64,000 nucleotides of DNA, from the NCBI GenBank assembly GCA_028534125.1, contig CM052839.1:45198001-45262000 (forward strand). Direction: 5' to 3'. Positions within the stretch are counted from its first letter, which is position 1. Each line of letters begins with the position of its first letter. Shown piece by piece: positions 44,545 through 46,515 of the stretch. The notes below the pieces were generated by a model that saw only the letters and a program-made list of their open reading frames with translations, was not told the DNA's origin and ran no database searches. The translations under genes and the position numbers were made by a program. The stretch comes from Lama glama (Eukaryota).

Positions 44545-46515
44545 CTGCTTTTCCTTTGAAATTTTCTCCTTTTTGATCAATTCAGAAAATTCTAGAGCGG
44601 GAAACAGATTTCTAGTAAATAACCCCCTGGCTTGTGGCCCCCAAGCTCCACAGGCCTGGCGGGGAGTCTCTGTTATGACGGGGGACCCCATGGGGGATGG
44701 GGGCCATGCATTCTGCCCTCCTGAGCCCTGGGTGGGGAGCAGGAGGGGCCGGAGCTTGGCTACCCGGGTGCCCCCACCGCTGTCGTGCTGGTGAGCTAGC
44801 CCCCTCCCCCAGGGCTTTAAGACAGACCCTCGGGCGGGGTTCCCCCGAGCCTTCTGAGCAGGTGCTTCTGTGATCACCCCACTTTCACTGGGGACACTGA
44901 GGCATAGGAAGGCTGGGGGCTGCGTTCCTAAGGGAACCCCTCAGCCCAGCTGCCCTCTGTTAAGCCTTGTGGCCACCCCAGGAGTCAAGGTTTGCTGGCA
45001 TTTGGGAGCAGGAAGCGGAGGCTCGCAGCCGGCGGGGGTGTCTGGAGACCAGCACGCTGGGGCTCTGAGCCCATCCCAGGGCCACCCTCCAGGCCCCGGG
45101 TCAGCATCAGGGGAGGGTGGGCAGGCAGCAGGACAATGCAGACTCCAGGGCAGCCATGGGGAGCCTCAGGGGAGGCCCGCAGCCCCACAAACGCCGCTCC
45201 TCCCAGGAAAGCCCCCCCAACCCACACATTCCCCTGCGGCCACAGCCGTCTGCCCACCCTGCCTCCGTCCTTCTGCGTCCACCTCTGCCGCCCCTTGGGC
45301 CTTGACCCCTGCCTCAGATTTCCCTCCCCATCTCGGAAGCCCCCATCTTATCTGCCCCCTTGACCCTCCCCAAAGCCAGCTTGGACCACCTCTCCTCTGC
45401 TCAGGCGCCGCAGCAGCCCCCCGGGCCCGGTGAAACTCCTGCTCCACTCAGCATCCCCGAGACTCAGTCTCCCCATCTGTGGACCTCCACAGGCCGCTGT
45501 CAGCTTCAGGGCATGGGGTCCACGCCTGGCAGTGGGGAGCCCGCTCAGCCCTGCACCAAGACAGGCGCTGGACTCAGTACCGACGGCCTGAGTGCGAATG
45601 ATTGCGGCAGGGGTGGGGAGTGGCCAGGGAGGTCCTGAGAGGTATCCCTGCCCCTCTCATCTCTGCTGCCCCACCTTCAAAGTCAATCCTTCCATCCCCG
45701 TCCATGTCGGCCGCCTGCATCACGGCCTCAGCCTCCTCGTCCATCAGTGGGGCGGTGGACCTGCTGCCGGAGATGGTGGACAGGATGTACCTGAGCCGGG
45801 GTGGGCTCAGGTCAGAGCTGAGGGGCACCTGGCCAGTGCCCAGTGGTTTACGAGGTGCTTGCTCTTCACTTTACAGCTGGAGACACTGAGGCCCAGCTGG
45901 AGAGGGGTCTCTGGGCTGAGGCCCCGTGCTGTGGCCCAGGCCCTGGTTTCCTGCCTGGCCCCATCTCCCACCAGGCCTGCTGGAGCCCAGTGGGGTACCA
46001 GGTCTTCTGGGGCGGCCGTGGTAGCTGTAGGCCAGGGATGGGGCCCGGGGCTCAGGACTCCCCGTTCCTAGCCACTGGCTGTCACTTTATCTCATTCCAC
46101 TCGATGAAGCTACTCTTGTCCTCATCCAGGGTCTGGAAGACCTTGCAGATGGCGTGCTCAGCTGCCCCAAGGCCTGGAACTTCTGCATGTTCTCAAACGT
46201 GATTTAGTTGAAGGAGCCTGGGGACAACTGGGCGCGTCACCAGGGCCACCCAACTTGGGGCCTGGCAGCCCTGGCCAGTAGGGCCAGGGCCCAGAGGGAA
46301 CTCCTGCTGGGTCCTGTGCCCTCCCCCAGCCCGTGGGCTCCTGTGTCCAGCACGTCTAGTCCATGGCTGGGCGGGCCTGGGGAGCAGGTGCGGGTTGGGC
46401 CGGGACGTGCTGTACCGTGGTGCCTCAAGTTGGTGGGCAGCAGGTCTACGTCCAATGGGGATGTGCCCACAGCCAAAACCATCTTCTTCATCTGGGAGAA
46501 GAAGTCCTCGCCCAT
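44545..46515 (-). pseudogene. PVALEF: PVALEF (parvalbumin-like EF-hand) orthologue, apparently inactivated
   Basis: Four coding exons: 46416-46515 ([23 protein letters not shown]), 46086-46217, 45675-45790 (EF loop [12 protein letters not shown]) and 44545-44591 (EFSELIKKEKISKEK). In-frame TAA at 46204-46206, net -1 frameshift near 46158, expected stop replaced by CAG at 44545-44547. Confidence 0.88.

What the first reader, a model, noticed from the sequence alone, without database searches (positions are those of the whole stretch)
44545..46515. PVALEF looks like a unitary pseudogene in this species
Seen: all four coding exons and their splice sites remain. Coding exon 2 reads G-S-F-N-TAA (46204-46206, Tyr expected) before either EF-hand. 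It is 132 nt where the flanking phases need a length of 1 mod 3 (a base is missing at CAG CTG AG CAC, about 46158). The first Ca loop has Ser at the conserved Gly-6 (DEDKSSFIEWNE), and the last exon runs past KEK through CAG to a stop at 44419. Several independent lesions beside intact neighbouring genes argue for real loss, not sequencing error. Inference: lineage-specific loss of a little-studied parvalbumin/troponin-C-like calcium-binding protein. I cannot tell whether this has been reported.
Basis: partly seen in the sequence, partly recalled or inferred. Interest (0 to 1): 0.7.

Follow-up and report, generated by a model that had tools for sequence, protein, structure and literature searches.

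The report
Dead PVALEF gene shared by camelids
The genome's only copy of PVALEF, a little-studied calcium-binding gene kept from fish to humans, is broken by an early stop and a frameshift, and because a related animal, likely an Old World camel, carries the same frameshift, the gene probably died before camels and llamas split: an ordinary gene loss, apparently independent of the one already listed for mice and rats.

Summary
The lesions are real and the gene is a unitary pseudogene, but the loss is older than one species. The window is a camelid, probably South American. Coding exon 2 has TAA at codon 38 and is 4 nt short (1 + 3). Exon 1 lacks 6 nt, EF-loop Gly-6 is Ser, and the stop is lost (+42 aa). 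G000 holds no second copy. An unspliced 151-nt contig from an independent run, 97% identical and carrying Camelus-type residues, spans exon 2 without a gap. A Camelus ferus gene model also dodges the same frameshift. So both exon-2 deletions predate the camel-llama split; sharing of the TAA is inferred, not shown. The three same-group DNA runs laid did not cover the locus. PVALEF loss is already listed for jerboa and muroid rodents (PMC7498332 supplement), which included alpaca and camel without calling them; my searches found no camelid report. The scan's notes hold no PVALEF finding. Pig, deer, elephant and sirenian orthologs also look eroded at protein level. The 33-kb contig carrying the gene is flipped in this assembly, splitting both neighbours.

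The parts
46416..46515 (-). PVALEF coding exon 1 remnant (ATG at 46515); 6 nt shorter than orthologs
   Evidence: tblastn of the camel model shows a 2-codon gap between 46453 and 46452
46086..46217 (-). PVALEF coding exon 2 remnant, 132 nt against 136 expected from orthologs
   Evidence: spanned without a gap by a 151-nt contig of run X16
46204..46206 (-). Premature TAA at the invariant Tyr40 (codon 38 here), before both EF-hands
   Evidence: sharing with X16 inferred only (27 nt from the contig end, inside the zone where differences are not listed)
46195..46200 (-). Approximate site of a 3-nt in-frame deletion (one of the two Phe at 43-44); exact place depends on alignment
   Evidence: shared with X16 (0 gaps)
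46157..46159 (-). 1-nt deletion (frameshift) at the Leu56/Glu57 codon boundary
   Evidence: shared with X16; camel model P0001 enters the exon in the same shifted frame
46161..46163 (-). Weak cryptic acceptor matching the entry point of the ab initio camel model; would bypass stop and frameshift
   Evidence: 8 pyrimidines of 20 against 12-14 at the four real acceptors; no spliced RNA seen
46109..46111 (-). Gly73Ser at position 6 of the first calcium loop; not in the camel model or X16
45675..45790 (-). PVALEF coding exon 3 remnant (second EF-hand), frame open
44419..44591 (-). PVALEF coding exon 4 remnant; usual stop position reads CAG (44547-44545), frame runs 42 extra codons to TGA
   Evidence: not checked in any independent run
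54689..54743 (+). AATK exon 1 (name from recalled motifs), head-to-head with PVALEF in a CpG island; synteny marker
35277..35776 (.). 500-N scaffold gap, left edge of the inverted 33-kb contig that carries PVALEF

Best explanation
This is the single, syntenic PVALEF ortholog of a camelid, broken in coding exon 2 by a premature stop and a 1-nt frameshift, and it was probably inactivated in the common ancestor of camels and llamas and has likely decayed without constraint since. Shown: the lesions, single copy, and a shared exon-2 length in a 97%-identical relative. Inferred order: selection relaxed on the camelid stem (14 stem amino-acid changes); the 1-nt and 3-nt deletions and probably the TAA were fixed before the Camelini-Lamini split (11-25 Mya, PMC4884201); the exon-1 deletion and Gly73Ser came later in this branch. 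Predicted consequence: any normally spliced transcript would encode a 37-aa peptide with no EF-hand and would be a likely nonsense-mediated-decay target (stop 234 nt before the last junction), so no calcium-binding PVALEF protein would be made. I see no sign that the loss was adaptive; disuse of a weakly expressed, redundant calcium buffer is the likeliest cause (inference).
For: Lesions. Single copy: exon-3 protein and 511-nt DNA searches give only the window itself; with intact peccary protein, 3 of 7 matches are this locus and 4 are 30-36% identical EF-hand genes. Independent sequence: X16 record 2 covers 46081-46230 with 5 other letters and 0 gaps; the 4 listed letters give Arg, Ser and Gly codons, and the Ser and Gly are the residues of Camelus ferus P0001. 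P0001 skips residues 37-56 and resumes in the shifted frame. Window and camel group at 100/99 on a 0.17 stem against a median end branch of 0.056. The window breaks 7 of 33 columns invariant in 81 orthologs, while 20 of 22 held-out orthologs annotated as intact break none and 2 break one. Window vs camel differ at 11 of 91 residues against 3.0 expected from 22 intact pairs (Poisson P 0.0003; ages recalled). The exon-2 contig diverges no less than an intron contig (5 of 150 vs 5 of 241, P 0.52). The camel model's spurious end pieces are closer to the window (91-93%) than its PVALEF exons (82-88%).
Against: The three DNA runs laid (X2, X4, X11; 3 of 15 high-share runs) did not cover the locus, so no lesion is confirmed in reads of this animal's own group. 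The X16 contig has depth 2.3 and is one record; its host is inferred from sequence only. Its fifth difference is unlisted: P0001 predicts it at 46105 (Ile75Val), but it could lie in the TAA. All splice sites survive and exon 3 is open after at least 11-25 My. An automated screen that included camFer1 and vicPac2 did not call the loss (PMC7498332, described by its authors as very conservative). Rate variation among intact pairs is wide (0 to 9 of 91), so the Poisson P overstates the case. P0001 is an ab initio model, probably from a draft assembly. No muscle RNA was examined.
Confidence: 0.88

Rival explanations
1. A cryptic acceptor inside exon 2 skips both the stop and the frameshift, so a shortened protein with both EF-hands is still made.
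For: Five AG sites (46191, 46182, 46179, 46173, 46161) give open frames of 154-164 aa. The camel model enters the exon at the site matching 46161. Exon 3 and all splice sites are intact.
Against: Four of the five have 8-9 pyrimidines of 20 against 12-14 at real acceptors; the fifth (13) ends in GAG, a rare acceptor (recalled). The product would lose part of the predicted helix 40-67 with invariant Phe38, Tyr40 and Phe43, carry Gly73Ser, Lys69Glu and Pro88Ser, and have a 42-aa tail. The retained exons evolve fast. The only RNA-run contig over exon 2 includes intron on both sides, with no joint.
Confidence: 0.05
2. The lesions are assembly errors or a private null allele of the sequenced animal.
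For: The assembly is fragmented (1,072,352 contigs) and mis-orients this very contig.
Against: The exon-2 length is identical in an unrelated run from a 97%-identical animal. The camel model avoids the same break. The lesions lie about 10 kb inside the contig. A 942-codon frame of the neighbour is open.
Confidence: 0.02
3. The coding function is dead, but the locus is kept as an AATK-antisense non-coding RNA, which would explain the surviving splice sites.
For: All six intron ends are intact. The human gene was first annotated as AATK-AS1 and shares a CpG island with AATK (PMC7301993, passages; names). Low-depth RNA-run contigs lie on exon 2 and upstream.
Against: At 2-3% divergence since the split, six 2-nt sites often survive by chance (inference). 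The contigs are unspliced and shallow, as expected of DNA carry-over or nascent RNA. The exon diverges no slower than the intron. I found no AATAAA within 4.5 kb downstream (one ATTAAA at 41922).
Confidence: 0.05

Closest known systems
[quoted passage not shown]
   Same: Four coding exons in matching phases; 67-86% identity of the exon pieces to peccary PVALEF; position between AATK and CEP131 (names and human order recalled); two EF-hands whose model matches the rat parvalbumin CD-EF core best (Z 12.9, rmsd 1.9 A, 73 residues).
   Different: Stop, frameshift, two in-frame deletions, loop Gly6 lost, stop lost; no full-length product possible by normal splicing.
PVALEF erosion in jerboa, hamsters, vole, rat and mouse (PMC7498332, supplementary table; read rows and part 4 of 5)
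   Same: Same gene lost in a whole mammalian clade.
   Different: Different clade, hence an independent event (squirrels, gundi, peccary and whales keep the gene). That screen included camFer1 and vicPac2 but did not list them for PVALEF.
Camelid-stem unitary pseudogenes such as CETP, PNLIPRP1, TREH and EFCAB13 listed for alpaca and Bactrian camel (PMC7498332 tables)
   Same: Loss shared by Old and New World camelids.
   Different: Those genes have known or guessable physiology; PVALEF has no tested function.

Membership tests
PVALEF ortholog | Closest to named PVALEF proteins, not to parvalbumin, oncomodulin or calmodulin | tested here: met
   Exon 3 hits camel, badger and dugong proteins, two of them named PVALEF, at 73-83%; nests among placental PVALEFs (that tree held no paralog outgroup)
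PVALEF ortholog | Synteny between AATK and CEP131 | tested here: met
   once the flipped contig is allowed for. Neighbour names rest on recalled motifs; Pfam and Atlas gave no name for the AATK exon
Unitary pseudogene | Reading-frame-disrupting lesions in the syntenic gene | tested here: met
   TAA and 1-nt deletion in exon 2
Unitary pseudogene | No intact copy elsewhere in the genome | tested here: met
   Three searches of G000; only best candidates are scored and the assembly may be incomplete
Unitary pseudogene | Lesion confirmed in independent sequence and shared with a sister lineage | tested here: met
   Both exon-2 deletions in one low-depth X16 contig, consistent with camel model P0001; TAA sharing only inferred
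Unitary pseudogene | Lesions fixed within the species (not a polymorphic null) | tested here: inconclusive
   3 DNA runs laid, none covered the locus; fixation follows only from sharing with the relative
Unitary pseudogene | Relaxed selection (dN/dS near 1) | tested here: inconclusive
   Protein-level excess of change; 4 of 4 listed exon-2 differences non-synonymous; no ortholog DNA for a proper dN/dS
Unitary pseudogene | No functional transcript or protein | not testable with these tools
   One RNA run, reproductive-tract label, contigs only, unspliced; no muscle or brain data
Processed (retro) pseudogene | Intronless copy away from the parent locus | tested here: not met
   Three introns with GT..AG at the syntenic site

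The most novel reading that the evidence does not exclude
PVALEF is a 400-million-year-old calcium-binding gene that mammals have dropped again and again: myomorph rodents, all camelids, and probably ruminants, pigs, elephants and sirenians, mostly plant-eaters, while carnivores, bats, whales and primates keep it. The pattern of losses would let its unknown function be mapped by phylogenetic association, with camelids as large natural knockouts of a gene that mice lack.
Probability: 0.35. Interest if true: 0.55.

Novelty: new member of a known kind. Interest (0 to 1): 0.32.

Why it matters
Taken alone, it is one more clade-wide gene loss, of a gene with no tested function, so no trait can yet be tied to it. 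It has modest value in three ways. It gives a second independent mammalian loss of PVALEF, missed by a published screen. It shows that the camel protein in public databases is likely an artefact of gene prediction on a pseudogene. And with the eroded pig, deer, elephant and sirenian orthologs it suggests a repeated-loss pattern that could point to the function of a human gene that cannot be studied by mouse knockout. The flipped contig is a practical warning for anyone annotating AATK or CEP131 in this assembly.

Tried and rejected
1. DNA runs X2, X4 and X11 (three organism labels) laid only a 34-nt repeat fragment each, so they say nothing for or against the lesions. 2. Word shares of 0.93-0.97 in 15 DNA runs from 8 studies show that the region is real and common, but cannot resolve single lesions, since each touches about 1% of the words. 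3. Exon 4 and the lost stop were not checked in any independent run. 4. Exon skipping as a rescue: skipping exon 2 stops at 48 aa; skipping exons 2 and 3 removes both EF-hands. 5. Crude two-rate dating with recalled ages of 17 and 63 My gave a median of 59 My, interval 29-63 My with the top fixed by assumption: it supports 'well before the split' and no date. 6. Naming the large AATK exon by Pfam and the Atlas gave nothing. 7. Absence of bovid, horse, rabbit, guinea-pig or bird proteins among the 120 of 199 hits listed and the 30 clusters opened (three listed only in part, 15 of 17, 19 and 23) is not counted as evidence of loss: the damaged camel model itself fell below the listed rows. 8. Literature: 8 searches. 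'PVALEF' 13 papers; camelid + gene loss + parvalbumin 0; parvalbumin-like phylogeny 6; aliases 5; alpaca + camel + gene loss terms 6; split date; TOGA + herbivore terms 1; camel + alpaca + parvalbumin 5. None reported a camelid loss in the listings or passages seen. The 9 supplements of PMC6386725 do not mention the gene. TOGA/Zoonomia status tables and bioRxiv supplements were not seen and may already class it as lost. 9. Earlier scan notes: none near the place, by sequence or with the word PVALEF.

Full report
OBSERVATION. On the minus strand the four coding exons are 46515-46416, 46217-46086, 45790-45675 and 44591 onward, all with GT..AG introns. Exon 2 is entered in phase 1 and left in phase 2, so its 132 nt leave 128 nt, which is out of frame. 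TAA at 46206-46204 ends the spliced product after 37 aa, 234 nt before the last junction; read through, the shifted frame would stop at codon 77. In 75 aligned orthologs this position is Tyr in 72, the loop Gly73 is Gly in 73, and residues 37-80 number 44 in 73. So exon 2 has lost 4 nt: the frameshifting base near 46158 and one whole codon near 46197. Exon 1 lacks two codons, and the last exon runs 42 codons past the usual end.

IDENTITY. Exon 3 retrieves a Camelus ferus hypothetical protein (P0001, 83%) and badger and dugong PVALEF. The window and P0001 share 15 residues that differ from the consensus of 47 mammals, 7 of them seen in none of the 47, and group at 100/99 support. Even the camel model's spurious first and last pieces map collinearly into the window at 93% and 91%. 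The window is therefore a camelid but not C. ferus; a South American species is the natural inference, and earlier scan notes on other parts of this genome say the same (unchecked notes). The gene lies between AATK exon 1 (+, 54689) and the 3' exons of CEP131 (+, 36914 and 39818); both names rest on recalled motifs. The rest of AATK (33569 and below) and the 5' part of CEP131 (69857-79420, counting on past the window) are on the minus strand. The 33-kb contig between the 500-N gaps at 35277-35776 and 69082-69581 is thus inverted relative to its flanks, most likely a scaffolding error; turning it round gives the human order as I recall it.

SINGLE COPY. Exon-3 protein and a 511-nt DNA probe find only the window in G000. 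Intact peccary PVALEF finds 7 places: three exons of this locus and four EF-hand genes at 30-36% identity.

INDEPENDENT SEQUENCE. Fifteen DNA runs under four organism labels and eight studies hold 0.93-0.97 of the region's words. I laid 3 of these 15 and 1 RNA run on exons 1-3. The three DNA runs gave only a 34-nt repeat fragment each and are uninformative. The RNA run X16 gave a 151-nt contig, depth 2.3, over 46081-46230, with 5 other letters and no gap. The four listed letters change Thr to Arg, His to Ser and Ser to Gly; the last two are the residues of camel P0001, so the source is probably a Camelus. With no gap, that animal has the same 132-nt exon, that is both deletions. The fifth difference is not listed because it lies near a contig end. 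P0001 predicts one at 46105 (Ile75Val, 25 nt from the end), which would account for all five and leave the TAA shared; but the TAA (27 nt from the other end) lies in the same blind zone, so this is inference. Separately, P0001 joins exon 1 to the point matching 46161 and resumes in the shifted frame, as a predictor would do to avoid this break. Gly73Ser and the exon-1 deletion are absent from the camel model, so they came later. The contig includes intron on both sides and no joint was seen, so it gives no evidence of a spliced transcript. Exon 4 was not checked in independent data.

SELECTION. PVALEF is strongly conserved: 33 of 134 positions are invariant in 81 orthologs from bichir and gar to human. 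The window breaks 7 of the 33 (one stop, two gaps whose placement depends on alignment, four substitutions). Of 22 held-out orthologs annotated as intact, 20 break none and 2 break one. The camelid stem is 0.17 changes per site against a median end branch of 0.056. Window and camel differ at 11 of 91 comparable residues (positions 20-24 and 35-57 left out), against 3.0 expected from 22 intact pairs (Poisson P 0.0003). The ages are recalled round numbers, five pairs (camelid, two pig, sirenian, elephant) were left out of the background, intact pairs range from 0 to 9 of 91, and a 25-My split would raise the expectation to about 4.4, so this is supportive only. All four listed exon-2 differences are non-synonymous, and the exon contig is no more conserved than an intron contig (5 of 150 vs 5 of 241). 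Fourteen changes map to the stem and six to each daughter branch, so relaxation began well before the split, dated 11-25 Mya in PMC4884201 (passages). A finer date is not supported.

HOW IT WORKS. The most likely history is loss of constraint on the camelid stem, fixation of the exon-2 lesions, then neutral decay. Normal splicing would give a 37-aa peptide without an EF-hand, a likely decay target by the recalled 50-nt rule, though stops near the start codon can escape it. The one mechanical escape is an internal acceptor: five AGs between 46191 and 46161 restore an open frame of 154-164 aa. They have poor pyrimidine tracts or a GAG end, and the product would lack invariant residues at the start of the predicted helix 40-67, so I give this 5%.

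THE INTACT PROTEIN. An AlphaFold model of peccary PVALEF (pLDDT 80, pTM 0.61) has a C-terminal EF-hand pair closest to the rat parvalbumin core (Z 12.9, rmsd 1.9 A, 73 residues). As a whole it scores higher against troponin C (TM 0.60-0.61) and calmodulin (up to 0.60) than against full parvalbumins (0.43-0.45), because of the long central helix; the domain arrangement is uncertain at this pTM. Little is in print. neXtProt listed it by homology with no peptide evidence in 2019 (10.1101/734657, passage). It was called muscle-specific in crab-eating macaque (PMC11017088, passage). It is described as a family spread through jawed vertebrates and used only as an outgroup (PMC9774829, passages). It is among the fastest-diverging genes on the human branch (PMC8664490, table passage).

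COMPARISON WITH WHAT IS KNOWN. The supplement of PMC7498332 lists PVALEF as eroded in jerboa, two hamsters, vole, rat and mouse only, although camFer1 and vicPac2 were in the set (main text seen as passages). Eight paper searches and the supplements of PMC6386725 (outline and supplement search) showed no camelid report; TOGA tables were not available. Named proteins cover carnivores, bats, whales, peccary, primates, squirrels, afrotherians, marsupials, platypus, reptiles and fish. Fallow deer, both elephants, dugong and slow loris are flagged LOW QUALITY by NCBI. Pig plus warthog (stem 0.17), deer (0.17), sloth (0.18), elephant and sirenians have long branches and break 1-5 invariant positions. 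This hints at repeated decay, but it is protein-level only, and loris and mouse lemur (1 and 3 breaks) do not fit a simple plant-eater pattern.

VERDICT. A real unitary pseudogene, probably camelid-wide (0.88), and a new member of a well-known kind. Interest 0.32. The bolder reading, recurrent loss across hoofed and other plant-eating mammals, I put at 0.35, worth 0.55 if true.

Noticed in passing
window 35777-64000 and L009 (to 69081 counting on from the window): The 33-kb contig between two 500-N gaps is inverted: AATK exon 1 and the 3' exons of CEP131 lie on the opposite strand from the rest of their genes. Probably a scaffolding error that would make both genes look broken.
   Followed up: partly
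P0001 (Camelus ferus EPY75815.1); window 51384-51343 and 38179-38111: The camel 'hypothetical protein' looks like an ab initio model stitched from the pseudogene plus two non-conserved pieces; the last maps between CEP131 exons on the opposite strand.
   Followed up: yes
P0011, P0010, P0041 (pig, warthog): Suid PVALEF is fast-evolving (19 of 91 differences from peccary; Phe38Leu, Tyr40Cys) and several pig models are 1-2 residues short, suggesting relaxation or loss in Suidae.
   Followed up: partly
P0128 (fallow deer), P0102 and P0221 (elephants), P0003 (dugong), P0073 (slow loris): NCBI flags these PVALEF models LOW QUALITY. The deer has Gly73Ser like the window, plus deletions in the second EF-hand. 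Possible further independent losses.
   Followed up: partly
one search hit list: No bovid, horse, rhino, rabbit, guinea-pig, shrew, pangolin or bird PVALEF among the 120 of 199 rows shown, though crocodilians, turtles and squamates are present. Worth a DNA-level check.
   Followed up: no
P0089 (human PVALEF): Human PVALEF differs from the mammalian consensus at five otherwise conserved sites, including Asp111His in the second calcium loop, in line with its listing as fast-diverging in PMC8664490; the human protein may bind calcium less well.
   Followed up: no
model md75e1a6d9020: Intact PVALEF is predicted with a long central helix (40-67), more like troponin C or calmodulin in outline than like compact parvalbumin; no solved PVALEF structure appeared among the 60 of 204 sequence matches shown.
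   Followed up: partly
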